A stretch of DNA of 46,905 nucleotides from Chiloscyllium plagiosum. Taxonomy: Eukaryota. This document shows positions 1 through 42,296 of the stretch, piece by piece. The DNA lies in the NCBI RefSeq assembly GCF_004010195.1, contig NC_057757.1:1437787-1484691 (forward strand), written 5' to 3'. Every line of letters begins with the position of its first letter. Positions within the stretch are counted from its first letter, which is position 1. Below the pieces are notes generated by a model. It worked only from the letters and a program-made list of their open reading frames with translations. It did not search any database and was not told the origin of the DNA. A program made the translations under genes and the position numbers.

Positions 1-13
1 TTATCTTAAACAG

Positions 14-118
14 AAACAAAGACAACTGAGACAATGGAGTCTACATCAGTGGACACAACAGTGACAACCATCGGCTCAAATCCTACCCTGACACCCACTG
101 ATCCGTCAACATCAGGAG
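14..118 (+). CDS. Transmembrane mucin (MUC3/12/17-like), PTS exon 1 of the window: ETKTTETMESTSVDTTVTTIGSNPTLTPTDPSTSG
   Basis: aaacAG acceptor ends at 13 and GTaaat donor starts at 119. 105 nt, phase 1-1, open and Thr/Ser/Pro-rich. Paralogous to exons at 1818 and 3736. The gene continues upstream of the window. Confidence 0.8.
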
Positions 119-614
119 GTAAATGACAGACATTGTGACTTATCGTTAGAACATATCCAATTGTAATTTGTCTCTGAGAGACTGGTACACGACCTCTTCA
201 CCTGCAATTTGGCTTGCACTAATTTTAATTCAGTGCATGACAAATTTATTGTAAACAATTAAATGTCCAGTGGGACGAGTTTCTGAAGTATAGCCAATGT
301 TTAACAAAGCAAGTGATGGGAGCCAATTTATGAACATCAAGATTACTTAGAAAACAAGGGAGAAATATGTGGAATTGATACTGTCTCTTCTTGATGGTAT
401 TTTGGAGATGAAGATTAGCCAAGGATACAATCAATGGTTCAACAGCTTCTGAAGCAATAACACAGTTAAATCCAATTCTCCAACAAGTGACTATGGAAGC
501 AATCACAAAGTAATGTCACTTTGGAGTGTCGATATTGCAGCACTCCCTCTGCAGTGCTGACCTCCAGCCTGGATCTGCTGGCAGTAACTCTGGCGTTGAG
601 TTAATGAGCTTCTG

Positions 615-822
615 GGAGAAAGTGAGGTCTGCAGATGCTGGAGATCAAAGTTGAAACTTTATTGCTGGAACAGCACAGCAGGTCAGGCAGCATCCAGGGA
701 ACAGGAGATTCGACGTTTCGGGCACAGGCCCTTCTTCAGGAAGAAGGGCCTGTGCCCGAAACGTCGAATCTCCTGTTCCCTGGATGCTGCCTGACCTGCT
801 GTGCTGTTCCAGCAATAAAGTT
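615..822. mobile_element. Fold-back insertion of a Penelope-like terminal repeat (84-bp perfect inverted arms) with 14-bp TSD
   Basis: Arms at 654-737 and 740-823. TTAATGAGCTTCTG at 601-614 and 823-836. Empty site in the paralogous unit at ~2414-2433. Confidence 0.85.
708..742 (-). ncRNA. Minimal hammerhead ribozyme-like motif
   Basis: Minus strand reads UUC-CUGAAGA-A-GGGC-CUGU-GCCC-GAAAC-GUC-GAA. Confidence 0.7.
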
Positions 823-1391
823 TTAATGAGCTTCTGACTGAGTTTTATGCGCTCACCCCACAGCACAGAGATAGTCCCAATGTAATAAGCTGCCAATGAG
901 CCTGTCCTGAACAGAGTGACCGTTTCTATTTTATTTCCAGAGAAAGTGCACTGGAGATGTACATTTTAGTGTAAACCAGTCAGGATTGCGACACAATGTA
1001 AGAGCTAAAGTGGCAGCAGGTGGATAACTACATTCAGCCTATTTAGCCTGTTCCATGAAAAATGAATTTGTTTCTTTCTTTTCTTCAATGCTAGTTCCCT
1101 GGATTATTGATGCAGCACTTGATGTTATTAACATATAGATATATTTTGATCATATTCTTGAACACACTGTGACTGAGACTTTTGCACTCAGTGGCATTGT
1201 GTACACAAAAGGTGGATCATCTTCTGACTAAAAACATTTCTCCTTGTTGTTGTCCTGAATTTATCGAGAACATGTTGTTGTCCTTGACCCCACTCCAGTG
1301 GAATTATCTTTCCAGTGTTGATCCAGTTGAAAGAATATGTGTCAGAATGTGCAAATTGTGCTTTTCTGAAAAATGACATGTGGCACTGTAG

Positions 1392-1514
1392 GCGAAAGTG
1401 GGTACTGCAGATGCTGGAGATCAGAGTCAAGATGAGAGTGGTGCTGGAAAAACACAGCAGGTCAGGCAGCATCTAAGGAGCAGGAAAATCGACATTTCAG
1501 GCAGGCGACCTTCA
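1392..1514 (-). mobile_element. Truncated copy of the same Penelope-like terminal repeat; hammerhead degenerate
   Basis: gaaagtg...ctgcagatgctggagatcagag...cagcaggtcaggcagcatc is shared with the copies at 615, 3434, 12237 and 18575. Confidence 0.75.
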
Positions 1515-1817
1515 TATCTTTCCAATGTTGATCCAGTAGAAAGTATGAATGTTAGAATGTGCAAATTGGCCTTTCTGAAAGATGACATGTGGCACTGTAG
1601 TCCTTTGTCAGCCAACCTACTGTGCAGGCTGGATTTGTGCAAGCTCAGTCTGGTCTGGGGTTTGAGACATGCTCAACTCCCTTTATGTTTATAACAAATG
1701 GAAATTGAAATCAAACCATAGCGTTGAACAGAATATGATTCTGATGTGGAAACAGAATGAGATGTGTAAAGAAAATGTATTCAGTATAAAACCTGATACC
1801 AACATTTTTTTGAACAG

Positions 1818-1931
1818 AAACAAAGACAACCATTCAGCACACAACAAGGAAATCCACGCCAGTGGACACAGCAGTGACCCCCAGCAGCCTAAAGCCTACC
1901 CTGACATCCACTGACGAATCAATATCAGGAG
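1818..1931 (+). CDS. Mucin PTS exon 2: ETKTTIQHTTRKSTPVDTAVTPSSLKPTLTSTDESISG
   Basis: tttttttgaacAG acceptor, GTaagt donor, 114 nt, phase 1-1, T/S/P-rich. Confidence 0.8.
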
Positions 1932-2645
1932 GTAAGTGGCAATCATTGTGACCTATCGTTAGAACATATCCAACTGCAATTATTGTCTGAGCGATTGGTA
2001 CACGATCACTTCACCTGCAATTTGTCTTGCCCTAATTTTAATAGAGAGCATAACTGATTTATTGTAAACAATTAAAGTTCCAGAGTGAGGAGTTTCTTAA
2101 GTATAATCAATGTTTAATAGAGTGAGCAATGGGAGCCAATTTATGAACAGCAAGACTACTTAGAAAACAAGGAGGGAATAGGTAGAATGGATACTCTTTC
2201 TTATTGATTATATTTACGGAATAAAAATTAGCTCAGAACACTGTTGAATGTTCAACTCCTTTTGGTCCAATAACACAATTCAATGCACTTCTCCCACACG
2301 GGACCACAGAGCAACCACAAAGTAATGTCACTGCAGAGAGTCGATACCCGTGACAGTGCAGCACTCCCTCTGGCCTCCAGCATAGATCTGCTGGCAGTAG
2401 GTCAGAGGTCGACTTGATGAGCTTCTGACTGAGTTTTGCATGCTTACCACTGAACACAGAGAGAATCCCAATGTCACATCTTGATTGAAGAGGACAGAAA
2501 TAGATACATCCACCCCTTTCAATTTGGAGCAAACATTTCAGCAGATGACAGGGTGTCATAGAATGGGGCGATTTCAGATGGAAATACATTTGGAAGAGTT
2601 GAGAAGAAGGTGTAAACCTCAGCCAACTGGTATTATATTTCACAG

Positions 2646-2729
2646 GAACATCACCAACAGGACAGGTGTCAACATTAACCAGCAGTCCAGAGCATTCAAC
2701 CACATCTGCAGAGACTTCAATGTCAAGAA
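2646..2729 (+). CDS. Mucin PTS exon 3 (second type): GTSPTGQVSTLTSSPEHSTTSAETSMSR
   Basis: atatttcacAG acceptor, GTaaat donor, 84 nt, phase 1-1. Paralog of the exon at 4546. Confidence 0.72.
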
Positions 2730-3433
2730 GTAAATAGGAGACATTATGACATATTTGTGCTGCATTTTTAATTGTTAATGGAGCAGGAAAGAATTTGAAA
2801 ATTGTTTTCCTACAGAGCAGTTCTTGATCTGGCATATGTGGGAAAAATAGTCGATTTTAAATGTACTGCAGGGAGAATAGAACAGAAAATGTACTTTCAC
2901 CAATTTATGGCTCCTGATACCTTTATTAAGCTTGCAAAGGAGCCTGTCCCGAACCGATTGACAGTTACATTTTTGTTTCCAGTGAAAGTACAACAGACCT
3001 TTGCCTTTACAATGCCTTTAGTACAAATCCGTCGGGATTGCTGCAGAATGTAAGAGCATAACGGATAGCAGGAGGATGAGGCCATTCAGCCCATGTAACC
3101 TATTCCATCAAACATGAGAGGATGCCATATCCTTCTTCATAGTCTTGAATATACTAAGTGAATATACCCTCGTGCACTCAGTTGGATTGTGTACACCAAA
3201 GATTCATCATCTTCTGAGTGAAAACATTTCTCCTTGTCTTTGTCCTGAATTTGTACAGAATGTTCCCTTATCCTTGACCCCACTCCAGTGGAATTATCTT
3301 TCCAATGTTGATCCAGTGGAAAGTATGAATGTTAGAATGTGCAAGTTGGGCTTTTCTGAAAGATGACATGTGGCACTGTAGTCCTCCCTCAGCCAACCTA
3401 CTGTGCAACCAAGACTTGCTCAAGTTCAGGCTG

Positions 3434-3590
3434 GGTAAAAACAATGACTGCAGATGTTGGAATCCAGACTCTAGATTAGAGTGGTGCTGGAAAAGCACAG
3501 CAGTTCAGGCAGACATCCGAGGAGCAGTAAAATCGACGTTTCGGGCAAAAGCCCTTCATCAGGAATACAGGCAGAGAGCCTGAAGGGTGG
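3434..3590 (-). mobile_element. Penelope-like terminal repeat fragment carrying a hammerhead motif
   Basis: Same family as above. Absent from the paralogous position at ~1650. Confidence 0.75.
3531..3566 (-). ncRNA. Minimal hammerhead ribozyme-like motif, intact core
   Basis: Minus strand reads AUUC-CUGAUGA-A-GGGC-UUUU-GCCC-GAAAC-GUC-GAUU. Confidence 0.7.
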
Positions 3591-3735
3591 CGACTTATCT
3601 CTGTTTGTAACAAGCAGAAAAAGACAATAGACTATAGAGTTCAACAGCATGTGATTCTGATGTGGAAACAGGCCGAACTGAATAAAGAACATCTATTCAG
3701 AATAAATCTGACACAATTAACATGATTTTAAACAG

Positions 3736-3849
3736 GACCAAAGCCAACAAGTCAGCACTCAACTAGAGAATCTACATCAGTGGACACAACAGTGACAACC
3801 ATCGGCTCAAATCCTACCCTGACACCCACTGATCCGTCAACATCAGGAG
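3736..3849 (+). CDS. Mucin PTS exon 4: xPKPTSQHSTRESTSVDTTVTTIGSNPTLTPTDPSTSG
   Basis: ttttaaacAG acceptor, GTaaat donor, 114 nt, phase 1-1. Confidence 0.8.
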
Positions 3850-4545
3850 GTAAATGGCAGACTTTGTAACTTGTAGTTTCAACATATCCAACTGAAATTA
3901 TTCTTTGAGATTGATACGTGATCACTAAACCTGTTTACCTGCTAAGTGTAATGCCCAATTTTAACACAGTGTGTAACTAATTTACTGTAAACAATTAAAA
4001 TTTCAGAGGGAGGGATTTCTGAAGTGTAGCCATTGTTTAATAGAGCGAGCATTGGGAACCAATTTATGAATAGCAAGATCACTTAGAAAACTTAGAAAAT
4101 AGCCAGAATGGATAATCTCTTTTACTGAAAATGTTCACTGTCGAGGGTTCATCTCCTTTTGATCCAATAACACAATTTCATCCAAACCTCCCAAGCAAGA
4201 GCACAGAAGCAATCACAAAGTAATGTCACATCAGAGAGTCGATACCTGAAACAGTGCAGAGCTCCCTCTGCGTTGCTGAGAGCCAGCTTGGATCTGGTGG
4301 CAGGGACTCTGGGGTAAACCTGATGAGTTTCTGAGTGAGATTTACATGCTTACAGCTGAGCACAGAGAGAATCCCAATGTAACAATTTGATTGAGGAGAT
4401 AAGAAAGAGATGCATCCTTTCATGCTGATGCAAACATTTGAGCAGGTGTTACAATGTCATTAAATCAGGGAGTTCTGGTGTCAATGCAGTTGAAAGTGTT
4501 AACCAGAAAATGTAAACCTCAACAAACGAATGCGATATTTCACAG

Positions 4546-4659
4546 GAATGTCACCAACAGGACAGGTGTCAACAGGTCAATCAATGTCAACTGATGGAAC
4601 AACATTCACCAATAGTCCAGATGTTACCACCACCTCTGCACAGTTCTCAACAACAGGAG
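4546..4659 (+). CDS. Mucin PTS exon 5 (second type): GMSPTGQVSTGQSMSTDGTTFTNSPDVTTTSAQFSTTG
   Basis: atatttcacAG acceptor, GTaaat donor, 114 nt, phase 1-1. Confidence 0.8.
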
Positions 4660-6040
4660 GTAAATGGGAGATATTGTGTCCTCTGGCTGGTTTTTAATTG
4701 GTTTGGCTGGGAACATCTTAGAGTGCATTTTAAAATAGTATTCCAAGAAGGCAGTGCCGGGTCAAATGCTTCTGTGATTGTATATTAGTTTCAAATAACC
4801 TGCAGACCATGGCGAAGGTACAATCCCTTTAACTTGTTAATGGCTCTTTAATCTCTTTAAGGAGCTTGTGATGTTTTCTCTCTTGAACAGAGTGAAGTTT
4901 TCAACTTGGAGAAAGTTTAGCCGACTAGAATCTCATAGTAACAGCTATTGGGGTTGCTGTGGAAAATATGAAATAGGAGCAGAAGGCCTTTCAGTTCTTT
5001 CATCCTGCTACACTATTTAATGCACTCATAGCTAATCTCCATCAACACCATTTCCCTGCACTACTCCATATCCCTCAACGCTTTTAATACACAGAAATAT
5101 ACTGTGCTCAGTCCTGAGCTTACTGAATGGCTGAGCTTCCATTAGGCTCTATGGCAGTACTTTCTAAAGAGTCAGCATTGTCTGAGTGTAGAAGTTCCTT
5201 TTCATCCATGTCCTAAATGGCACGCACCTCCTTCTGTGATTGTGTGCCCTGATTTCAGTCCTCACAACAAGGTAAATCTTCTCTTCAGCATCAATCCTGT
5301 TGGTCTCTGCTAAAACGTTTCATGTTAGAATGAACAGAAGGTTTTATGAATTTTATGGGGTGATCTGTTGCTGGATCAAATATTGGACTTTGTGTTGGTT
5401 CTCATGGCCACCTTGTTCCTCCCTTATCCTCCTGACCATATTATGAGTTGTCTTCTCTTCTTGGCAGACATTAGGCAGCCCCTTACATGTCATCTGCCTG
5501 TCTTTGCTCTGAATTCAGGATGGCAGCTCCTGCCTACTTTGTATTGTAACTGAGGCTGCCTCTTGCCCAATCATCCCATTTACATTTGAAAATAAGTTTG
5601 AATATGCAGGGTAGTTCAGGGACCCGGAATTCTACTGTGTCAAATTTCCAATCCTCCTTTGAAAGTCTGGCCCATTTTTCCAAAACATCAACCAGTTCAC
5701 TGTTAACCAGTTAATATATCTGACAGTCATTCAATGCGAACACTCCAATTTGCTAGTTGCCAATGTCAAGGAATGTGCCCCAGCTAAGAAGTTTCTCTGC
5801 TGTGAAAGGGCTAAAATGATTAGACGCTTATTTAGTCACATGATCAATGTTCCTCTTTCCCAAAACAGGAAGTAAATTACCAAAGGAAGTTTTAATTGAT
5901 TGGAATGTGTTTCTGGTATGTTTTTAGTGTGATTTTAAAAAAAGCAGAACAATGAAGCATTATTTAAGTCAACTTACTCCTGCCTAGACTGAGAGATGGA
6001 GCCTTAAAGTAAATTTAAATCATGAAATAATCACCATTTC

Positions 6041-10300: not shown

Positions 10301-12236
10301 CAGCTCTTTGTGTTCATGTGGCTCCCGAACGAGACGACATATTCTCACCAAGCCCGGGCCATCATATTGTCATGCACTACATCAAAAGCATACCTATCTC
10401 TGTAGATGCTGACTCTTTGACCCCGCCCCAAGCTAATTTCAGTGCTGCTGTTAGGGCTTTTAATTCTGCGATTTGGGTTGCGTATCTACCATGTATCTGC
10501 CCTCCAGCCATCAAGTTTCCTTCAACATCTACCATTCAATCTGGCCAGAAAATGAAATCCAAAACATGATAACTTAAACATCAGGATACTGAAATTAAAT
10601 ATTTACTCAGGCGAAACACACTGCAGATAGTATCTTACTTTGAGGAAGGAGAAAATAAGATATGTCTTTTGACTTAATTTTTTCTTCATCAATGAACTTT
10701 AAATTTTTACAATGCTTTAAGAACAAATTTTAAATCAATATTTCGTAACACGTTTTTCTTTTACCTGACCACTGCTAGTTCCTTAAAGTGACATCACCTT
10801 AACCATACATGTTCCTAACTGGTACAGGCACACGCATACCTTACATTCCCGAAACACAAATTAAACTCAAAATATTCCCAGATTGCGAGCTCCAGGGAAC
10901 GAAAACACACAAATTAGACTAGACACCATTTAACAACTAACAAATTAAGATACATATACACCAGACCAGAAAGAGTAAATCTTTGGTTTTGGGGCTACCG
11001 ACACTCGCGTTCACATCCACACAGGAAAGACTTCTAATCTCGAACAAACACAAAAAGCTGGTCCTTCTCTCTCTCTGTCTGTCACATACTTATAAACACT
11101 TCCTTACTACCTTCCGATGTCAGGTTTTAACTTATTGTTTATCTTCTTTCATAAAGAGAATGAGACGTACAATAGTTTCACATTTCAAATCCAGCAGTTA
11201 TATGGCACACAGTCACAACAAAGCTGTTCACACCCATAAATCTCAGCTTGATAAATATCCACTGAACAAAGAATTTCACTTTTAATTTTGCATTCTGTCA
11301 AAATGCTAACTTTTAAGGCCATATTTTATTTGTTACTTGTTTCTTTTTACTATTCTACTTGCAAACTAGGTGGGTTTGTGAGGTTCCAATTAATTTTAAT
11401 CATATGGTCAATCTGTTCAATAACACTTGCCTTTCTGCTGGGCTAAAAGGTTCTAAGTTAATTTTTTTCCTGTCCTGCTGATTCCCCTGCCTATCTCTTC
11501 AATGTTTAACTACAGCTCACAGAGGAGCTATAGGTGCGGGTCTTTCTGATTCATAGGATGGTAGGTCATCCCACCTCTTCCCGCCCCATGTCAATACAAG
11601 CCCATTTTGTTCTCTAACCCATTCCAGTGAATGTCATCATCCTCGCTGCCCTCTGAGTAGAGCGGGACATTGGTGCCTCCCCTACTGCAACCACTATCTG
11701 GCCTTTGGCTTTAAACTGTCACGTCTGATAGCCACCACCCTCACTGTTCTCGCCTGTCACCGGTTATATTACTGACAAGGGTTGTCTGAATTACAGCACC
11801 TTCTCATATTTATCTTGACCTTGTCCCTTCCACCAAGCTTTCTGCTCTGGTATCAGAGGGGTCTGGGTCATACCCCCTCCTGATCATATTCATGATCATA
11901 TTCATGAAATCCAGCACACTTTGTTCTAAAGACCCTCTGGGCCCCATATTATTTTTCCTTTGTCCTTCAACATGATCCATTCTGGTCCCTTTTCAGCTGT
12001 CATGGTCTTATGCCTCCCTCAGCACGTTTTTCAACCGAGGTGTGCTGCTGTGGGGCTCAGTCCTCCCCAATACTGACTTTCCTCACGCCTTATCAGTCCT
12101 GCTGTAGGGCCTTCTCCTTCCTGGTGCACACTAGGTCAATTGATTGTCTACTGAACACAGCACGACACTCTTCTCCCTCTTAGTTCTTTTCATACTGCAA
12201 CTTACAGCTAGCATTGACTATGGGGTTTGCCAACTA

Positions 12237-12385
12237 GGCAAAAGTGAAGACTGCAGATGCTGGAAATCAGAGTCTAGATTAGAGTGGTGCTGGAAAAGCA
12301 CAGCAGGTCAGGCAGCATCCAAGGAGCAGGAAAATCAACGTTTCGGGCAAAAGCCCTTCATCAGGAATGAAGGCAGGGAGCCTCC
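12237..12385 (-). mobile_element. Penelope-like terminal repeat fragment inserted in the ERV leader
   Basis: Same family as 3434. Flanked by GGGGTTTGCC at 12222-12231 and 12386-12395. Confidence 0.75.
12333..12368 (-). ncRNA. Minimal hammerhead ribozyme-like motif (GUU triplet)
   Basis: Minus strand reads AUUC-CUGAUGA-A-GGGC-UUUU-GCCC-GAAAC-GUU-GAUU. Confidence 0.65.
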
Positions 12386-14321
12386 GGGGTTTGCCCTATG
12401 CCTAACAAGGGTGGTATTATTAAATGTACTCACCCAATTAGGACCCACATTGTCGGTAGTGGACCATTGCAGTACTTGCTTGCAGCACTAATTGTTGGGG
12501 AGAGAAATCACAGAGGAGTTCGGTGTCCAGCAGTACAAATGACTTTTATTCAGCAATGGAGGGTTTTCTGGGACTAATTCAGAAGATGCAGCAGATTCAT
12601 CCCGAGGAAAAAGTAGCACGATACAGGGAGGATGAGACAACCCTGGCTGACTGAGGAAGTCAGAGATAGCATAAAAGCAACAGAGAAAGCTATCATGTGG
12701 CAAAGGGCAGTGGGAAACCAGAGGATTGGGAAGCTTACAAAGACCAACAGAGAACAACAAAAAAGAAATAAGGAGGGAGAAGATTAAAGATGAGGGTAAG
12801 CTAGCCAGTAAGAAGAGTTTCTTTATATATACTTGTATAAACAGGAAAAGAGAGACAAAAGTGGACTTTGGGCCGCTGGAAAATAACATTGGAGAGATAG
12901 TAGTGGGGAACAAGGAAATGGCTGAGGAACTGAATAATTTCTCTGTGTCGGTCTTCACAGTGAAAGACATGAGTAATATCCCAAACATTCAAGAGAGTGA
13001 GGGGTTAGAGCTGAGAATGGTGGCCATCACCAAGGAGAAGGTGCTAGAAAAACTGAATGGCCTGAAGGTGGAAATAATCACTTGGACCAGATGGATTACA
13101 CCCCAGAGTTCGAAGGGAGATAACTGAAGAGATAGAGAAGGCATTAGTGGTGATCTTTCAGGAATCGCTAGAATCAGGGAGGTTCCCACAGTACTGGAGA
13201 TCATGAACAAAACCCACTGTTTAAGAAGGAAATAAGGCAAAAGACAGAAAATTATAGGCCGATTAGCCTAACCTTGGTCGTGGGTAAGATCCTGGAACCC
13301 ATTGTGAAGGATGAGATTTCTGAATACATGTAAAATAGGGCAAAGTCAACATGGTTTCATCAAGGGGAGGTCATGCCTGACAAATCTGCTAGAATCCTTT
13401 GAGGAAGCAATGAGCAGGTTAGATCAAGGAGAGCCAATGGATGTTATCTATCTGGACTTCAAGAGGGCGTTTGACAACGTGCTGCACAGGAGGCCACTAA
13501 GTAAGATAATGGCCCCTTGGTGTTATAGGCAAGGTGCTAGCATGGATAGAAGCTTGGCTGTCTGACAGAAAGCACAGAGTGAGGAAAAAAGAAACCTGCT
13601 CAGGATGGCAGCTGGTGAGAAGTGGTGTTCCGCAAGGCTCAGTGTTGGGACCACAACTTTTCACTTTATACATTATAACAATCTTGATGAAGGAACTGAG
13701 GGCATTCTGGCTAAATTTATAAATGATACAAAGATAGAGGGACAGGTAGCATTGAGGAAGCAGGGAGGCTCCAGAAGGATTTGGACATGTTGGGAGAGTG
13801 GGCAAAGAAGATGCAAATGGAGTACAAACTGTGAGGTCAAGCACTTTGGTAAGAAGAATAGAGGAATGCACTATTTTCTAAATGGGGAGAAAATTCAGAA
13901 GTCTGAAGTGCAAAGAGACTTGGGGAGTTCTAGTCCAGGATTCTCTCAAGGTGAACTTGCAGGTTGAGTCAGTAGTTAGGAAGGCAAATGCAATGATGGC
14001 ATTTATTTTGAGAGGGTTTGAATATAAAAGCAGAGATGTAGTTCTGAGGCTCTATAAGGCTCTGGTCAGACCACATTTGGAGTATTATGTGCAGATTTGG
14101 GCCCCATGTCTTAGGAAGGATGTACTGGCCCTGGAGCACGTTCAGAGGAGGTTTACAAGAATTGTCCCAGGAATGAACAGATTAACATATGAGGAACATT
14201 TCAGGACTCTGGGTCTATACTCTTTGGAGTTTAGAAGGATGAGGGGATCTAATTAAAACATACAGAACACTGAATGGCCTGGACAGAGTAGATGTTGGGA
14301 AGATGCTTCCATTGGTAGAAG

Positions 14322-16309: not shown

Positions 16310-16443
16310 AAAACGAAAAGAACTGCCAATGCAGTAAGTCAGAAACAAGAACAGAAGTTTTTGAAAATGCTTAGAAAGTCTGGCAGCATCTATGAAGAGA
16401 AGTCAGAGTTAATGTTTTGGGTCTGGTGATCCTTCCTCAGAAC
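16310..16443 (-). mobile_element. Third family of hammerhead-bearing terminal fragment, degenerate
   Basis: Minus strand 16443-16408 reads GUU-CUGAGGA-A-GGAUC-ACCA-GACCC-AAAAC-AUU-AAC. A related copy lies at ~19597-19725. Confidence 0.55.
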
Positions 16444-18440: not shown

Positions 18441-18574
18441 TTGATTGGTATTGGACATTTCTCTTAACTTACTCTGCCAGGAACCACTGAACTTAGGCTT
18501 GACTTGACTGAGGGCTGTTGACAACCATAACAAGCTTCCTTGCTAAACACTATAGCAGTACAGATGTAATATTA

Positions 18575-18781
18575 GCTGAAAAATGTGTTGCTGGAAAACC
18601 GCAGCAGGTCAGGCAGCATCCAAGGAGCAGGAGAATCGACGTTTCGGGTATAAGCCCTTTTTCAGGCTTATGCCCGAAACATTGATTCTCCTGCTCCTTG
18701 GATGCTGCCTGACCTGCTGCACTTTTCCAGCAACACATTTTTCAGCTCTGATCTCCAGCATCTGCATTCCTCACTTTCTCC
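18575..18781. mobile_element. Second fold-back insertion of the Penelope-like terminal repeat (83-bp arms, ~5 mismatches) with 14-bp TSD
   Basis: Arms at 18574-18656 and 18665-18747. CAGATGTAATATTA at 18561-18574 and 18782-18795. Empty site at ~21515-21535. Confidence 0.85.
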
Positions 18782-19774
18782 CAGATGTAATATTAAGCTA
18801 GTCTCTCATGCTGTGGGTGCAAGGTGCCAATAGGCAAGTCAATACAAGGCAGGGGATGCTTTGAGCACCGAGGTAGTAAGTGCTAAGACAGCAAGCGTAC
18901 AAACTGGAGATGTGGCCTCGTGCAGTCCTAGTTTGTGATCTCACAGGGTCCTTGTTACAGTGCTACAATGATCGTTGCCCTTGCACCCCAAGTTGTCATT
19001 TTAAAGACACATACTTTAGGTAATTCAGAGACGTAGAGTGAGGATTCTTAAGAGGCTGACACATATCAGATGCTATTGTCCATGGACTTGGGGTGTATGT
19101 GGCTGGTGTCCACGGAGTATGCCCTGAGATGTTAGTGTCTGATGTCTAACATAGAGGTCCTTCAGAGCAATCAATAAACTGAAGTCACCTGGTACCCTCT
19201 CTGACTTCCGTGTCGAGAATTCACAGCATCCACCTTCTTCCCTGCCAGCAGTGAGATTGAAAGCTGCATATTAATGAGGTGCTCTGCCATACAGAAGGTC
19301 ATTACCAAGCAATAATCCCTCTTTAATTGGCAACTCGCCACTCCTTGAGTCACAATGTCATATTGACACCCTGAAATTATTGTAAAAGTGCAGTGAATTG
19401 TTCCTGACATCAATCTAAGCCTCACTGAGTTACCACATGATTCTGCCACATTTCACATCATAAGCTCAAGTCATTCAGGCCTCTATAGGATTCTGCCTGA
19501 AAAAATATGTATTTGAAAAGAAAAACAAAATGGATTATGGAGACTAAACCAGTGAGTGGAACTGGGTGGATAGCTCCTTCAAAGAGCCACTCAAATAAAA
19601 CAAAGAACTGCTGATGTGGGAAATCTGAAACCGAAACAGAAATTGCTGGAGAAACTCAGCAACTCTGGCAGCATTTGTGGGAAGCAAACAGAGTTAATAT
19701 TTTGAATCTGGTAACTCCTCATTCTGGCTGACTATATTCCTCATTATAAAATGTTTTGTCTTTTATTCAACCAG

Positions 19775-20320: not shown

Positions 20321-22414
20321 GCACAGGCAGTGGGGAGTCAGAAAGTAAGGTACTTGCTGCCGTATTCCTAGCATTTAACCTGCTCGTGTAGCCACTGTAT
20401 TTATATGGTGAGTCCAGCTAAATTCCTGGTTAATGGTCACTCACAGGATGTTGATAGTGGGGGATTCAGTGATGGTAACACTGTTCAATGTCAAGGGACC
20501 ATGGCTAGATTGTTTTTATTGGAGATGGTCATTGCCAGGCATTTATGTGGCACAAATGCAATTGTCACTTTTCAGACCAAGCCTGGACATTGTTGTATTT
20601 GAGCTGAACTCCTTCAGGAGTAGTGTTGAATGAGCAAAGATCCTTGCTTCTGACCTTATGATGGAGGGAAGGCAATAAAATTATGACTGCTCTCATCATG
20701 ACCTCAACTACCCTTTCCTGCCTGTTCCCCCAACCTCTGACTGCCTCATCTGTAGGATTATATATTGCAGAGGACATTCTAGGCTGGGTCATTAAATATA
20801 ATCAAGGCTGAGACAGATTAGATCAGCCATAATCTCATTTAATTAGAGAGAGAACTTAATTGGCTGAATGGCCTGTTTCCTTTTCCGAACTCTTATAGTC
20901 TTATGGTTTTCATAAATCAAAATCTGTTTGCTTGTTTCTACATTTCCCTAAATAAGACATTGAGGCTTATTTTTTCTTTAGGAGACATCAATTGGGATGG
21001 AACCTGAGTTGCCTTTCCATCTCCCACCCCTGTGCTTTATTTGGCCTGACGTTGGTGATATCCCCGACTAATCCTCTACTTCCTATTCTAATCCATCCCC
21101 ACCCCAACAACTTATTCACTTCATATAATATGAATTCACAAGTCTATCATAATACTTGAACATCTAAGAGCACACAATCCCCCACATAAACAATTTGATC
21201 TCATAATTGCTCACCTCAACAGACGCCTAAACTGAAACAATGAAAGCTGTTGAAGGTACTTAAAAAATGACTGTTGGGAATGGAAATGAATTATGCAGTG
21301 GGTGACTTGCTTGTAGCGGTCTAATTTAGAAACAGTAATCATGCTACATAAACCTTGACTTATTGACTGTTTATTCGTAAGCTCACGGGGAGAGACAAGT
21401 CCACTGAATAGTCACAAGTCACTCCAATTGAACAAATGCTTGACTTGACTGAGGACTGTTGACAACAATGACAAGCTTCCTAACTGTGTGTCCATGCTAA
21501 ACAACATGGCAATACAGATGTAATATTCGGCTAGTCTCTCATGCTGAGGGTGCAAGGTGCCAATAGGCAAGTCAATACAAGGCAGCGGATGCTTTGACCA
21601 CCGAGGTAGTGAGTGTCAAGACAGCAAGCGTACAAACCGGGGATGCGGCCTTGTGCAGTCCTAGTTTGTGATCTCACAGGGTCCTTGTTACAGTGCTGCA
21701 ATGATCATGTGATTATATAGGTTACAATCGTTTAACAATGAGCTAATTGTTAATTGCAGGATCATGAGGAAGCTAGACACATTGCCCAGTCACTAGCTTC
21801 AGTCCCGTAATGTCTGGACAGTGTTGGTTAGTAGCTGATAAGCAGGGTTAGTATATAATTGGTGCTTGCAAAGAGAAGAATAGTCCCATGCAAGGAAATA
21901 ATTCGTTTATCAGGTATCAGTATAGCTGTGAGGCCAACCATCTTTGCCGAGCATGGGAAACACACGCTTTAGCAAGCAGGCATCAAGATGAGATTCAAAA
22001 TGGTTTCCAGGCTTTTAATATGTGACAAAATGGCTGACCCAAATCTAACAATTCTCCCACAATTACGTATCTTTTAAAACTTTTCCCAACTCCATGCAGC
22101 TAGTGTAAAACCTCACTGCTGCTATACCCTGTTCATCTTGCATAAAATCAGCAAACCTTCCAGAGACAGGCCTTTAATGAATCTGCCTCAATATGAAATA
22201 TCTTGTTTATAAAAATAGGACACTTTGGAACTCACATCTTTACCTGCTTTCAGAAAACAGACAGACAGCATAAATGTTGATGGGATATCCATCCACATTG
22301 TTTGGAGGCCATTTTTGTACTCTCCTGCTTTCGTTAAACTTGGGTCCTAAGTTGGGTACAGCTTATTGTTACAAATGTAAATAAGGTACTAACACATGTT
22401 GCAATGTATTACAG

Positions 22415-22533
22415 GAAATGTGACTTATGCCATCAGAGTGACAGTAAAAATAGAGAACAGGAATTACTCCATTGAACTGGCAAACAGATCATCTGAAACG
22501 TTCATGAACTTTTCAAAGGAGTTTAAGGAACAG
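22415..22533 (+). CDS. Mucin SEA domain exon a: GNVTYAIRVTVKIENRNYSIELANRSSETFMNFSKEFKEQ
   Basis: tactaac branch point, tacAG acceptor, GTtgga donor, phase 1-0. Matches the SEA N-terminal pattern (Y..EL.N.SS..F..F...F..Q). Confidence 0.9.
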
Positions 22534-23454
22534 GTTGGAAACTTTCAATATAGTTGTATTGAAGGGCAATTATTAGAAATTGTTTTGAAAATATTATACA
22601 TGTTATGAAAAAGGAGGGCATCTTGGTGAAGTCAAAATAGGATTGTTTTTCTCCTCTTCTGTCTGATACAATGGGGTGTGTTTGATTTGCTACTTTTTCC
22701 TGCTTACTTTATCCCTTTACTGAGATAGGCCAAAGGATGTGTATCTTTTAGAAATAATCAGTGGCTACAGGGACCATAATGAGGCACCTGTATGATGATG
22801 CTGTCCCTTTAGCAAGGTTATTTTGCCTTTGGCTTTTTCGAGAGAGATCGTAAAGGCAGAGGTTCTGATATGTCTGGAAATATCTACCTTATATATACAG
22901 TTAAAAGTCGATCTCATGTAAAAGACAACCCTTTATTTTTGACAAAACAATCTTGTATTTTCCATATATCTCATGTAAAAGTCGACTTTACTATATCACA
23001 TTATAAACCTCTTATGATGGAAACTGCATGTTCCACTTAAACAAAATCGCATTCATTCACTCATACCAGTAACTCTACTCATTGGTCTTTGTTTACTATA
23101 TTGCGTCTCTATTCATTTATTCATTCCTAACTCTACTTAGCCCACTTGGTTTACTACAGCATGTTTTGATTCATTCATTCATTCAGACCAGTACGAAGTC
23201 TATCGGTACTTATCGCACTTTGTTCACTGTACATCCAAACATTAATATCGTTAAACGTTAATCATTTTAATTGTGCCATTATATCTGAACAAAAATGAGA
23301 TATATTAGCTACATATATCTTTGATAAATTTGAAAATGTTGTGAGGTTCATAGGATAGATGTGATCTATATGAACTTTGATAAGGTATTTGACAAGGTTT
23401 CCTGTGGGAGACTGGTTAGCAAGGTACGATCTCATGGAATACATGGAGAACTAT

Positions 23455-28241: not shown

Positions 28242-31200
28242 TTAACACGTGGCTGCAAGGCTAGTGCAGGAGGATGGGCTTCAGACACCTAGACCATTGG
28301 GATGCCTTCTGGAGAAGGTGGCACCTGTACATGAAGGACAGCTTGCACTTGAACTGGAGGGCACAAATGTCCTGTTTGGGAGATTTGCTGGTGTGGTTCG
28401 GGAAGGTTTAAACTAGTTTGGCAAGGAGGTAGGAATCAGAGCTAAATATCTGAGAGAGGGGTGGTTGTAGATGGGGCAGTGACAGGATGTAGTGAATCTA
28501 TTGTGAAGGTTTCTCACGTGATGAAACAAAGGGATTGGTTAAAGTGTGTCTGCTTTAACGCAAGGAGTGTTAGAAATAAGAGAGATGAACTTAGAGCATG
28601 GATCAGTACTTAGGGCTATGATGTTGTGGCCATAACAGAAATGTGGGTTTCACAGGGGCAGGAATGGTTGCTAGATATTCTTGTGTTTAGAACATTTAAA
28701 AAGAACAGGGAGGGTGGAAAAAGAGGAGGGGGTGTAGCATTGCTAATCAGAGAATGCATCACAGCTACAGGAACAAAGGTTGTTGAGTAAGGTATGCCTA
28801 CTGAGTCAGTGTGGGTGGAAGTTAGGAACAGCAAGGGAGCAGCCACCTCATTGGGGGTTTTATACAGACCTCCTAACAGCAGTAGGGAGATTGAAGATCT
28901 CATAGGCGGGCAGATTTTGGAAAAATGCAGGTGTAGCAGGGTTGTTGTTATGGGTGACTTCAACTTTCCAAATATCAACTGGAACCTTCTTAGTGCAGAT
29001 GGTTTGGTTGGAGCGTTTCCTTACTCAGTATGTAGACAGACCAACGACGGGAGAGGCCATTTTGGATTTGATGCTTGGCAATGGGCCAGGACAGGTGTCA
29101 GATCTCGTGGTGGGAGAACACTTTGGTGACAGTGATCACAACTGCCTCACATTTACCATAGCCTTGGAGAGCGAAAAGAGCAGTCACCAAGGGAAGATAT
29201 TTAACTGGGGAAAAGGAAATTATGATGCTATCAACAGGAGTAGGGAAGTACAGACTGGGAGCAATTGTTCCACAGAAAGGGTATAGCAGACATGTGGAAG
29301 CTGTTTAAGGAGCAGTTGTTGCGAGTGATCCACAAATTTGTTCCTCTGAGACAAGTAAGAAGGGGTAAGATTAAGGAACCTTGGATGATGAGAACAGAGG
29401 AGCTTCTCGTCAAAAGGAAGAAGGCAGCCAAGGTGAAGGAAGCAAGGATCTAGCACAGCTTTACAGGATTACAGGCTTGCTAGAAAGGAGCTCAGAAATA
29501 GACTGAGGAGAGCCAGGAGGGGCCACAAGAAAGGCTTGGCAGGAAGGATTAGGGAGAAACCAAAGGCATTTTACTCATACATGAAGAATAAGAGAATGAT
29601 CAGGGAAAAAGAGGGCCGATCAGGGAAAGCATAGGGAACTTATGTGTGGAGTCTTGAGCAGATAGGGGAAGCCCTAAATGAATTTTTTGCCTCAGTTTTC
29701 ACTAAGGAAAGGGACCTTGTTGTGAATGAGAACTTTGAGGAGCTGTGATATGGGCTTGATAGATCAAGATAGATGAAGTTGATGTGTTGGAAATTTTGGT
29801 GAACATTAAGATTGATAAGTCCCCGGGGCCAGACCAGATTTATCCTAGGTTGCTCTGGGAAGTGAGAAAGGAAGTTGCTATGCCGCTGGTGAAGATCTTT
29901 GCTTCCTCACACTCCACAGGAGTCATACCGGTGGATTGGAAGGAGGCGAGTGTTCCTCTTTTCAAGAAAGCTAATAGGGAAATCCCTGGCAATTACAGAC
30001 CAGTCAGTCTTATGTCTGTGGTCAGCAAGGTTTTGGAAAGAATTCTGAGGGATAGGATTTATGACTATTTGGAAAAGCATAGCGTGATTAAAGGCAGCCA
30101 GCATGGCTTTGTGAAGGACAGGTCGTGCCTAACTAACCTTATTGAGTTCTTCGAGGAGGTGACAAGACAGGTCGATGAAGGTTAAGCAGTAGATGTGGTG
30201 TATGTGGACTTCAGCAAGACATTTGATAAGGTTCCCCATGATAGGCTTATTCATAAAGTCAGGAGGTATGAGATACAGGGAGATTTGGCTGGATTTAAAA
30301 TTGGTTGGCTGACCGAAGTCAGAGAGTGGTTGTAGATGGAAAGTATTCTGCCTGGACATCAGTGTTGAGTGGTCTGCCACAAGGCTCTGTTCTTGGCCTC
30401 TGCTCTTTGTAGTTTTTATAAATGACTTGGATGAGGAGATTGAGGGGTGGGTTAGTAAATTTGCAGACGACCACAAAGGTTGGAGGTGCCGTTGATAGTA
30501 TGTATTGAGGGCTGTTGCAGGCTGCAGCGTGACATAGACAGGATGAAGAGCTGGGCTGAGAAATGGCAGATGGAGTTCAACCTGGATAAATGCAAAGTGA
30601 TGCATTTTGGAAGGTTGAACTTGAATGCTGAATATAGGATTAAAGGCTTGATTCTTGGCAGAGTGGAGGAACAGAGGGATCTGGGTGTGCAAGTACATAG
30701 ATCCCTTAAAGTTCCCACCCAAGTGGATAGGGTTGTTAAGAAAGCATATNNNNNNNNNNNNNNNNNNNNNNNNNNNNNNNNNNNNNNNNNNNNNNNNNNN
30801 NNNNNNNNNNNNNNNNNNNNNNNNNNNNNNNNNNNNNNNNNNNNNNNNNNNNNNNNNNNNNNNNNNNNNNNNNNNNNNNNNNNNNNNNNNNNNNNNNNNN
30901 NNNNNNNNNNNNNNNNNNNNNNNNNNNNNNNNNNNNNNNNNNNNNNNNNNNNNNNCTGGATTTAAAATTGGTTGGCTGACCGAAGTCAGAGAGTGGTTGT
31001 AGATGGAAAGTGTTCTGCCTGGACATCAGTGTTGAGTGGTCTGCCACAAGGCTCTGTTCTTGGCCTCTGCTCTTTGTAGTTTTTATAAATGACTTGGATG
31101 AGGAGATTGAGGGGTGGGTTAGTAAATTTGCAGATGACCACAAAGGTTGGAGGTGCCGTTGATAGTATGTATTGAGGGCTGTTGCAGGCTGCAGCGTGAC

Positions 31201-32037
31201 ATAGAAAGGATGCAGAGCTGGGCTGAGAAATGGCAGATGGAGTTCAACCTGGATAAATGCAAAGTGATGCATTTTGGAAGGTTGAACTTGAATGCTGAAT
31301 ATAGGATTAAAGGCAGGATTTTTGGCAGTGTGGAGGAAAAGAGGGATCTTGGTGTTCAAGTACATAGAACCTTCAAGGTTGCCACCCAAGTGGATAGGGT
31401 TGTTAAGAAAGCATATGGTGTTTTGGCTTTCATTAATGGGGAATCGAGTTTAAGAGCCGCGAGGTTTTGCTACGGCTCTACAAGTCCCTAGTGAGACCAC
31501 AATTGGAATATTGTGTCCAATTCTGGTTGCCCTACTAGAGGAAAGATACAAAGGCTTTGGAGAGGGTGCAAAGATGGTTTACCAGGATGCTGCCTGGACT
31601 GGAGGGCTTGTATTATGAAGAGAGGTTGACTAAGCTTGCATTTTTCTCTCTGAAGAGAAGGAGGAAGAGAGGTGACCTGATCGAGGTATACAAGGTAATA
31701 AGAAGCATGGATGGAGTCAATAGCCAGAGACTTTTCCCTAGGGCAGGATTGACTGGAAAGAGGGGTTATAGTTTAAAGATATTAGGAGGAAGGTATAGAG
31801 GAGATGTCAGAGGTAGGTTCTTTACGCAGAGAGTTATGAATGCATGGAACGTGTTGCCAGCAGTCGTGATGGAAGCAGAGTCATTAAGGACATTTAAGCA
31901 CCTGCTGGTCATGCAAATGGATCGCAGTGAATTGAGGGGTGCGTAGGTAAGGTTATTTTATTTTACATTAGGATTAATCCTCGGCTCAAAATTGTAGGCC
32001 AAAGGGCCTCTTCTGTGCTGTACCTTTCTATGTTCTA
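28242..32037 (+). mobile_element. Long CR1 LINE: end of ORF1 (esterase-like), APE endonuclease and RT, with stops and frameshifts
   Basis: NTWLQG...LDHW..FW....LY.KD.LHLN; GVLYRPPNS, VVMGDFNFPNI, GDSDHN; KSPGPDQIYPR, NYRPVSL, SQHGF; tatgttcta tail. Confidence 0.95.
30750..30955. other. Assembly gap
   Basis: Run of N. Confidence 1.
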
Positions 32038-40671: not shown

Positions 40672-42296
40672 AGAGTCATACAGTCATGAAGATGTACAGC
40701 AGGGAAACAGACCCTTCGGTCTAACTGGTCTATGCCCACCGAATATCCTAAACTAATCTAATCCCATTTGCCAGCATGGCCCATATCCCTCTAAACCCTT
40801 CCTATTCATGTACCCAGCCAGATGCCTTTTAAGTGTAATTGTACCAGATTCCACCACTTTCTCTTGCAGCTCATTCCACACACACACCACCTTCTGTGAA
40901 AACTTTGGCCCTTAGGTCCCTTTTAAACTTCTCTCCTTTCAGCCTACACCTGTGGTTTGTAGTTCTGAATTCCCCTCCTTCTCTACTTATCCTATTCATG
41001 TCCCTCATGATGTCATAAACCTCTATAAGATCACCCCTCAGCCTCTGACACTCCAAGGAAAAAGGCCCTAGCTTGTTTGGCCTCTCCTTATTGCTTAAAC
41101 CCACCAACCCTGGTAACATCCCAGTTAATCTTTTCTGAACCCTTTCAAGTTTCACAACATCCTTCCGAGAGGAGGGAAACTAGAACTGCACACAATATTT
41201 CAAAAGTGCCCTAACCAATATTCTGTACAGCTGCAACATGACATCCCAACTCCTATAATTGATGCTCTGACCAATAAAGAAAAGCATACCAAATGCCTTC
41301 TTCACAATCCTACCTATCTGAAACTCCACTTTCAAGGAACTATGAATCTGCACTCCAAGGTCTGTTTGATCCCCAACATTCCCTAGGACCTTACCACTAA
41401 GTGTATACGTCCTGTCCTGATTTGCCTTTCAAAATGCAGCACTTCACATTTACCTAAATTAAACTCCATTTGCCACTGCTCGGCACACTGGCCCATCTGA
41501 TCAAGATCCATTTGTACCCTAAGGTAGCCTTCTTTGCTGTCCACTACATCTCCAATTTTGGTGTCATCTGCAAACTTACTAACTTTATCTGCTATGTTCA
41601 CATCCAACTTATTTATATAAGTGACAAAAAGCAGTGGATCCTTGTACCACCCCACTGGTCACAGGCCTCCAGTCTGAAAGGCAGCCCCCCACCACCATCC
41701 TCTGTCTTTTACCTTTGAGCCAGTCCTGTATCCAATTGGCTAGTTCTCCCTGTATTCTACATAATCTATCCTTGCTAGCCAGTCTAGCATGAGGAACCTT
41801 GTCAAACGCCTTTTTGAAGTCCATATAGACCACACCCACTTCTCTGCCCTCATCAATCCTCTTTGTTACTTCTTCAAAAAACTCAATCAGGTTAGTCAAA
41901 CATGATTTCCAATGCACAAAGCCATATTGATTGTCCATAATTAGTCCTTACATTTCCAAATGCATGTGAATCCTGTCCCTCAGAATTCCCTCCAACAACT
42001 TGCCCACTACCGATGTCAGGCTCACCAGTCTATAGTTCCCTGGCTTTTCCTTACCACCTTTCTTAAATACTGGCACCACATCAGCCAACCTCCAGTCTTC
42101 CAGCATCTCACCTGTGACTATCGACGATACAAATATCTCAGCAAGAGGCCCTGCAATCACTTCCCTAGCTTCCCTGAGTTCTTGGGTACATCTGATCAAG
42201 GCCTGGGGATTTATCCACCTTTACGCATTTTGAGACTTCAAGCACATCCTCGTCTGTAATATGAACATTTTTCAAGATGTCACCATTTATTTCCCA
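40672..42296 (-). mobile_element. 5'-truncated CR1 LINE (RT)
   Basis: NYRLVSLTSVVGK, YMDFKKAFDKVPH, SKFADDTK, LERVQKR.T.MLPGL. Confidence 0.93.

What the first reader, a model, noticed from the sequence alone, without database searches (positions are those of the whole stretch)
601..836. Young fold-back element: perfect 84-bp palindrome hinged on the hammerhead, with a 14-bp TSD and an empty paralogous site
Seen: 654-737 is the exact reverse complement of 740-823 with a 2-nt spacer. The hinge falls at the 5' edge of the CUGAAGA core, so only the minus strand has a complete core. TTAATGAGCTTCTG is duplicated on both sides, and the sister units (~2414, ~4320) lack the insert, so this is an insertion. 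Inference: it arose either from template switching or self-priming during PLE reverse transcription, or it is a mobile hairpin mini-element in its own right. In the mucin pre-mRNA it would form an 84-bp dsRNA (possible ADAR/Dicer substrate) between PTS exons.
Basis: partly seen in the sequence, partly recalled or inferred. Interest (0 to 1): 0.7.

Follow-up and report, generated by a model that had tools for sequence, protein, structure and literature searches.

The report
Young mirror-image Penelope retroelement stub
This perfect 84-base palindrome is a real 208-base insertion of two head-to-head copies of a very abundant repeat that is likely the ribozyme-bearing end of a Penelope-type jumping gene, a layout already described for that class; it is probably so recent that other individuals lack it.

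Summary
Observation confirmed: arms 654-737/740-823 are exact reverse complements, the duplication is 14 bp (601-614, 823-836), and the sister units are empty. Inverted copy + 30-40-nt tail + short duplication + minimal hammerhead is the published signature of Penelope-like element (PLE) insertions. The family is huge: 202-286 contigs per run end at base 615 with unrelated flanks (4 of 4 runs). A second fold-back in the window has the same tail end but a different hinge. Hinges lie at the ribozyme's 5' edge, about 25-30 nt from its cleavage site, so cleavage did not make them; single-arm copies stop in the same zone. Best model (inferred): both cut target strands prime cDNA from two start sites on uncleaved RNA, and the cDNAs anneal by 2-3-nt microhomology. 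Three of three same-species samples show a contig leaving the window at 614, so the site is likely polymorphic. No parent RT/GIY-YIG ORF, RNA reads or long reads were seen. The scan has reported this kind many times on other pieces of this genome. Ordinary kind; modest mechanistic value.

The parts
601..614 (+). Left copy of the 14-bp target-site duplication
   Evidence: single copy in sister units
615..654 (-). 40-nt one-sided extension (PLE-type tail); 615 is the family's outer terminus
   Evidence: same end in E2; 202-286 contigs per run have loose ends at 615 in 4 of 4 runs
654..737 (-). Long arm: element end in hammerhead-sense on the minus strand
708..743 (-). Minimal type I hammerhead motif: C3 at 739, 4-bp stem II, no helix III, GUC cut between 712 and 711, 3-bp stem I
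   Evidence: no Rfam hit at gathering score; activity untested
738..742 (.). Hinge: spacer AG, plus GAA (740-742) that fits both the element's native continuation and the start of the inverted arm (3-nt microhomology)
   Evidence: comparison with single-arm copies E4 and E5
740..822 (+). Short arm: inverted copy, lacks C3-U4 of the core, ends at the mirror of 655 (inner terminus)
823..836 (+). Right copy of the 14-bp target-site duplication
18561..18795 (-). E2: second fold-back of the family; insert 18575-18781, 14-bp duplication, 35-nt tail, different hinge, arms differ at 5 of 82 positions
1390..1515 (-). E3: single-arm copy ending inside the core, flanked by a diverged ~87-bp direct duplication
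3432..3590 (-). E4: single-arm copy reaching about 26 nt upstream of the core
12222..12395 (-). E5: single-arm copy with a 10-bp duplication, reaching 21-26 nt upstream of the core

Best explanation
The 208-bp insert is two head-to-head copies of the end of a very abundant repeat, likely the hammerhead-bearing terminal repeat of a Penelope-like retrotransposon, and was likely built at this site in one recent insertion event. Shown: the anatomy, the empty sister sites, the family-wide terminus at 615, and different hinges in two copies. Inferred: (1) a PLE protein acting in trans nicked both strands 14 nt apart. (2) Each 3' end primed cDNA on uncleaved element RNA, one from the outer start site (615) and one from the inner site 40 nt further in (655); this gives the tail. 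(3) Both cDNAs stopped after about 85-130 nt near the 5' edge of the hammerhead, because the RNA begins near there or because a short built-in inverted repeat centred there stalls and pairs them. (4) The two 3' ends annealed through 3 nt of microhomology (GAA), were filled in and ligated. The product is a dead stub in an intron of a mucin-like gene. The ribozyme is a passenger: it did not cut the template, and in the host's plus-strand transcript its core is broken and buried in the hairpin.
For: Anatomy. The same outer end, a 14-bp duplication and a 35-nt tail in E2, but a different hinge with 2-nt microhomology. Family scale: summed depth 2.6e6-5.6e6 at 615-629 against 40-330 in the flank (not a copy number), and loose ends at 615 in 268, 202, 286 and 250 contigs with agreement 0.34-0.35, that is unrelated flanks. 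A second group of loose ends at 662/663 (26-104 contigs) keeps about 10 element-like letters and so points to a second terminus near 651-655 (my reading of the consensus). Of 7 arms in E1-E5, 5 stop between -3 and +9 of C3, 2 stop at -21 to -26, and none stops at the cut site (+27/+28). E2 cannot come from snap-back of one strand: the sequence after its hinge has no template in the long-arm strand, and the tail is absent from the short-arm strand. Literature: inverted pLTR with a 31-bp tail and 8-10-bp duplications, head-to-head (PMC3846280); inverted truncated copy and 30-40-bp tail as general PLE traits (PMC8557442); anole PLE protein cleaves and extends both strands, starts at two internal sites whose spacing is the tail, and uses uncleaved RNA (PMC11167929). 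Youth: perfect arms; contigs 99+% alike are 3164 of 24097, 3359 of 24638 and 4233 of 30810 in organism A, against 157 of 17887 in organism B.
Against: No parent ORF was linked here. 0 of the 150 longest of 237 ORFs in the window hit a GIY-YIG family; the 7 RVT_1 hits and 1 endonuclease hit lie in other repeats. Two protein searches with a read-through frame found nothing. Only two hinges were read in full. E1 alone fits self-priming equally well, and PMC3846280 favours self-priming for such junctions. E2 could be a symmetric hairpin that later lost part of its centre. No contig bearing the filled junction was shown (the table was cut, 98,500 records not shown). Earlier notes report some hairpins recopied whole (e1-7858790, e1-7858430; not tested here).
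Confidence: 0.68

Rival explanations
1. Same PLE stub, but made by self-priming: one cDNA folds back at the hinge and copies itself, and the endonuclease resolves the second end, leaving the tail.
For: E1's 3-nt GAA/TTC pairing allows a snap-back with a 2-4-nt loop. E5 has a native 7-bp inverted repeat centred on the core's 5' edge. PMC3846280 proposes self-priming for head-to-head junctions. Perfect arms are expected.
Against: E2 cannot be made this way from either strand without a later central deletion. The anole PLE extends both strands in vitro and its two start sites explain the tail directly (PMC11167929).
Confidence: 0.17
2. A non-autonomous hairpin mini-element that is transcribed and mobilised as a whole unit, with hinge differences arising later by central deletion.
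For: Very high abundance and a fixed outer end. Similar total length in E1 and E2 (208 and 207 bp). Earlier notes report some hairpins recopied whole (e1-7858790, e1-7858430; untested).
Against: E1 has perfect arms yet a hinge unlike E2's. Single-arm copies with the same outer end and their own duplications are at least as common in the window (3 of 5). Each hinge carries a junction-type microhomology.
Confidence: 0.1
3. Assembly artefact: a short-read assembler walked a hairpin and wrote a false inverted arm or a false insert.
For: The window has N gaps. Three of three organism-A samples show a contig that leaves the window's sequence at 614. No long reads were seen.
Against: An exact 14-bp duplication, a start exactly at the family terminus seen in hundreds of contigs, a microhomology hinge, and E2 with the same layout and 5 arm differences are not what collapse produces.
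Confidence: 0.03
4. Hammerhead self-cleavage sets the template end and thereby the hinge.
For: Both hinges lie in or beside the motif.
Against: The cut falls between 712 and 711. A cleaved template would give arms that lack the core; 0 of 7 arms stop there and 7 of 7 include sequence upstream of the cut. Single minimal hammerheads showed no cleavage in vitro (PMC4209133), and ribozyme mutants did not affect insertion (PMC11167929).
Confidence: 0.02

Closest known systems
Insertion units of endonuclease-positive Penelope-like elements with inverted pLTR, tail and TSD (Arkhipova et al. 2013, PMC3846280; Craig et al. 2021, PMC8557442)
   Same: Head-to-head inverted truncated copy, 30-40-nt tail on one end, short duplication, palindromic junction.
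   Different: No ORF between the repeats; the whole unit is about 210 bp; the duplication is 14 bp against 8-10 bp in the rotifer cases; abundance is far higher; the parent ORF was not shown here.
PAc (Poseidon of Anolis carolinensis) in vitro mechanism (Frangieh et al. 2024, PMC11167929)
   Same: Two element ends a tail-length apart; the copied DNA includes the uncut hammerhead; outer end lies 97 nt from the cut site here, a similar scale to the 111-118 nt from the start codon (cut site at 26) reported there.
   Different: The part of the paper read does not reconstitute joining of two cDNAs into a fold-back; the clade of this element is not determined.
Minimal hammerheads (min-HHR) of metazoan PLEs (Cervera and De la Pena 2014, PMC4209133)
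   Same: Type I core, no helix III, palindromic positions around GAAACGUC, unpaired base before stem II, mostly solo copies; dual motifs on opposite strands 100-700 bp apart were noted there.
   Different: Stem II is 4 bp and stem I 3 bp here (7-8 and 4-5 bp in the Schistosoma family); only one arm keeps a whole core.
Non-LTR retrozymes (bioRxiv 10.64898/2026.07.22.740005)
   Same: ORF-less, hammerhead-bearing, PLE-derived, present in a chondrichthyan.
   Different: Retrozymes were defined there as tandem head-to-tail repeats and were depleted from introns; this unit is head-to-head, single and intronic.
Palindromic Harbinger repeats and Penelope copies as ADAR substrates (Porath et al. 2017, PMC5625713)
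   Same: A ~200-bp self-folding repeat in a transcript is heavily edited in frog; lizard Penelope is massively edited.
   Different: Harbinger is a DNA transposon; editing of this locus was not tested.

Membership tests
EN+ Penelope-like element insertion | Terminal repeat carrying a (minimal) hammerhead motif | tested here: met
   Motif at 739-712 on the minus strand and in E2, E4, E5. Rfam gave 0 hits at gathering score, so the match is to the published minimal pattern only.
EN+ Penelope-like element insertion | Inverted, 5'-truncated copy joined head-to-head | tested here: met
   E1 and E2
EN+ Penelope-like element insertion | 30-40-nt tail at one end only | tested here: met
   40 nt in E1, 35 nt in E2; two groups of ends
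EN+ Penelope-like element insertion | Short target-site duplication with an empty site | tested here: met
   14 bp in E1 and E2, 10 bp in E5; empty sister units
EN+ Penelope-like element insertion | Parent element with one ORF: telomerase-like RT plus GIY-YIG endonuclease | tested here: inconclusive
None among 150 of 237 window ORFs scanned; no genome held; protein searches empty.
Minimal hammerhead ribozyme | Self-cleavage (as a dimer or with protein help) | not testable with these tools
   Needs an in vitro assay; predicted folds of both strands of the insert are the long hairpin
Non-LTR retrozyme | Tandem head-to-tail repeats of a hammerhead-bearing unit | tested here: not met
   0 of 5 copies E1-E5 is tandem
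MITE / fold-back DNA transposon (definition recalled) | Inverted repeats at both termini, abutting the duplication | tested here: not met
   The left terminus is 40 nt outside the inverted repeat; single-arm copies insert with their own duplication

The most novel reading that the evidence does not exclude
A Penelope-like family is still jumping in this species, and its stubs are a mass record of an unresolved step of PLE replication: a dimeric enzyme cuts a preferred site (G at -17, often G-R-C just outside the duplication) with a fixed stagger of about 14 nt, primes both strands from two start sites near the front of its RNA, and seals the two short cDNAs to each other with no separate second-strand step. 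Each polymorphic stub drops a ready-made 80-bp dsRNA hairpin into a host intron.
Probability: 0.3. Interest if true: 0.5.

Novelty: new member of a known kind. Interest (0 to 1): 0.22.

Why it matters
As a single locus it matters little: it is one of very many stubs of a described insertion type, and the scan has already logged the kind repeatedly in this genome. Collectively the stubs could test how PLEs finish insertion (two primed cDNAs annealed, or one cDNA self-primed), which PMC8557442 and PMC11167929 leave open. If this site is polymorphic, it is a clean marker of current activity and a natural with/without comparison for the effect of an intronic perfect hairpin on editing and splicing.

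Tried and rejected
No whole genome is held, so hinges and duplications could not be tabulated genome-wide. Rfam at gathering score: 0 hits. Metagenome scan with a 20-nt element motif: 17 loci, 17 of 17 match for only 20-26 nt and are chance hits. Protein searches with a read-through frame of E1: none at near lengths, 0 of 22 candidates at longer lengths. Pfam on 150 of 237 ORFs of 60 aa or more: no GIY-YIG. Earlier findings by sequence: nothing. No RNA holder was listed on record, and no RNA reads were laid, so expression, editing and small RNAs are untested. Organism B is uninformative: its contig stops at 605. A 5c row (X2, 739/709, five letters between) may be a third hinge type with both cores intact, but the row gives no kind, so it is not counted. 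The low-depth 614/662 opposite-strand joint (depth 2.7 and 4.2) was not interpretable. E6 and E7 (16320-16440, 19604-19680; older relatives) were left out of the arm-end count because their native upstream sequence is unknown. In one search the rows for E2long and E3 were printed one base out of register; their offsets (+9, +3) were read by eye. Literature: four searches that included shark or twin-priming terms found no description of this shark family or of a two-primer model for PLE fold-backs; the library lacks most subscription papers and Repbase/Dfam were not available. The supplement search of PMC11167929 found nothing in 3 text files; its figures S1-S2 and the bioRxiv supplements could bear on the start-site geometry and were not seen.

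Full report
Observation. The palindrome is as described: 654-737 is the exact reverse complement of 740-823, with spacer AG. The 14-mer lies at 601-614 and 823-836 only; chance is about 2e-6. The insert is 615-822. With it removed, unit 1 aligns cleanly with the two sister units of the local ~1.9-kb repeat. The host is a plus-strand gene with PTS-rich exons at about 14-118, 1818-1931, 2646-2729, 3736-3849 and 4561-4659 and a weak SEA hit downstream, so a mucin-like host is reasonable and E1 is intronic. 'Shark-like' is a label taken from earlier notes of the scan and was not tested here.

Anatomy. On the minus strand the long arm carries a minimal type I hammerhead: C3 at 739, a 4-bp stem II, GAAACGUC with no helix III, cut site between 712 and 711. 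The two arms are thus joined head-to-head with their 3' ends pointing outward. Rfam found nothing at gathering score. Both strands of the insert fold as one long hairpin (-185 and -179 kcal/mol), so the motif would be buried in any transcript.

Family in the window. Blast and a profile search found E2 (18575-18781), E3 (1390-1515), E4 (3432-3590), E5 (12236-12385) and two older relatives. E2 is a second fold-back with the same outer end, a 14-bp duplication and a 35-nt tail; its arms differ at 5 of 82 positions and its hinge differs from E1's. E3-E5 are single arms; E5 has a 10-bp duplication. Measured from C3, the seven arms stop at -3 and +2 (E1), -1 and +9 (E2), +3 (E3), about -26 (E4) and -21 to -26 (E5). 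None stops at the cut site (+27/+28). So the hinge does sit at the ribozyme's 5' edge, but this is a stopping zone of the whole family and not a product of cleavage. E1's hinge has a 3-nt microhomology (GAA fits both the native continuation seen in E4/E5 and the inverted arm); E2's has 2 nt. E5 carries a native 7-bp inverted repeat centred on the core's 5' edge, which could favour pairing there; E4 lacks it.

Family in the genome. Summed depth rises from 40-330 in the flank to millions in the element; the tool warns that this is no copy number, but the family is plainly huge. Loose ends pile up at 615 (268, 202, 286, 250 contigs; agreement 0.34-0.35, i.e. unrelated flanks), and a second group at 662/663 keeps about 10 element-like letters, which places a second terminus near 651-655, where E1's and E2's short arms end. 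Only the best-supported rows were shown (503 not shown). Contigs 99+% alike to E1 are 13-14% of those laid in organism A and 0.9% (157 of 17887) in organism B, which suggests a recent, species-level burst. The flank consensus at 615 has G at -17 in 4 of 4 runs, C at -15 and T at -14 in 3 of 4; E1 and E2 also have G at -17. The runs share loci, so this is a hint of a target preference at the far edge of a ~14-bp duplication, not a measurement.

Polymorphism. In X1, X2 and X4 a contig matches 497-614 with 0, 1 and 1 differences and then continues for 17, 36 and 62 letters that do not align to 615 onward; depths are 36.5, 53.7 and 105.5 against 40.5, 58.9 and 134.8 in the flank (table 8). The simplest reading is an empty allele in 3 of 3 samples. 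The continuing letters were not read, a near-identical tandem paralogue cannot be excluded, and no contig with the filled junction was displayed. This fits a very young insertion, and slightly raises the chance of an artefact.

Mechanism. PMC3846280 (passages and the Discussion read) describes inserts completed by an inverted pLTR, with a 31-bp tail on one end, 8-10-bp duplications and palindromes at head-to-head junctions, and proposes self-priming. PMC8557442 (passages) lists the inverted truncated copy and 30-40-bp tail as general PLE traits. PMC11167929 (parts 1-2 of 4, the main text) shows that a PLE protein cleaves and extends both strands, starts at two internal sites whose spacing is the tail, and does not need ribozyme cleavage. 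PMC4209133 (parts 1-2 of 4) defines the minimal hammerhead and notes dual motifs on opposite strands. From these I infer two-strand priming with microhomology annealing. E2 favours this over snap-back: the bases after its hinge have no template in the long-arm strand, and the tail is not in the short-arm strand; a later central deletion remains a way out. The idea that the stopping zone marks the front end of the RNA is reused from earlier notes (e1-8019151, e1-9369093) and is untested here.

What is not shown. The parent ORF: 0 GIY-YIG hits in 150 of 237 ORFs and empty protein searches. Expression, editing, small RNAs and long-read support: none examined. For the dsRNA idea there is precedent (PMC5625713, passages), which makes editing plausible but unremarkable. 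The retrozyme preprint (10.64898/2026.07.22.740005, passages) defines tandem units, which this is not. PMC6155905 and PMC8455134 (passages) added only that PLEs carry minimal hammerheads and occur in a shark genome.

Novelty and verdict. The layout is published for the class; the searches made found no account of this particular family. The scan's own index lists many near-identical findings in this genome (8 of 8 shown in each; one on E2); these are unchecked notes and were not used as support. New member of a known kind, interest 0.22. The boldest reading left open, a currently active family whose stubs record two-strand priming at a preferred site, has probability about 0.3 and would deserve about 0.5.

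Noticed in passing
window 1304-1391 and 1515-1600: E3 is flanked by a ~87-bp direct duplication (about 90% identical), present once in the sister unit at ~3294-3381: an unusually long duplication for this family, or a repair-associated one.
   Followed up: partly
window 12352-12373: E5 has a native 7-bp inverted repeat with a 5-nt spacer centred on the hammerhead's 5' edge; E4 lacks it. It could explain where hinges form.
   Followed up: partly
window 16320-16440 and 19604-19680: Two older, diverged relatives of the element (profile E 3e-6 and 9e-8) that also end near the hammerhead core; no clear duplication.
   Followed up: partly
loose ends at 612-615; window 585-614 and 18782-18811: Flank consensus shows G at -17 and often C at -15, T at -14 from the outer end; both E1 and E2 duplications also end in TCTG next to the element. 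Possible target preference or terminal microhomology.
   Followed up: partly
window 1-4700 and 22393-22605: Tandem ~1.9-kb units with short PTS-rich exons, and a weak SEA-domain hit further on: a mucin-like gene; 3 of the 5 main family copies lie in its repeat introns.
   Followed up: partly
window 300-605, run X9: Flank depth 328 in one contig of organism B, and extra diverged contigs over 497-614 in organism A: the mucin unit array is probably larger than assembled.
   Followed up: no
window 13308-14253, 28791-31943, 41386-41947, 45118-45477: Broken LINE-type RT and endonuclease fragments (RVT_1, Exo_endo_phos hits); the 300-nt 99% repeat at 30289/30956 flanks an N gap and is probably an assembly duplication.
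   Followed up: no
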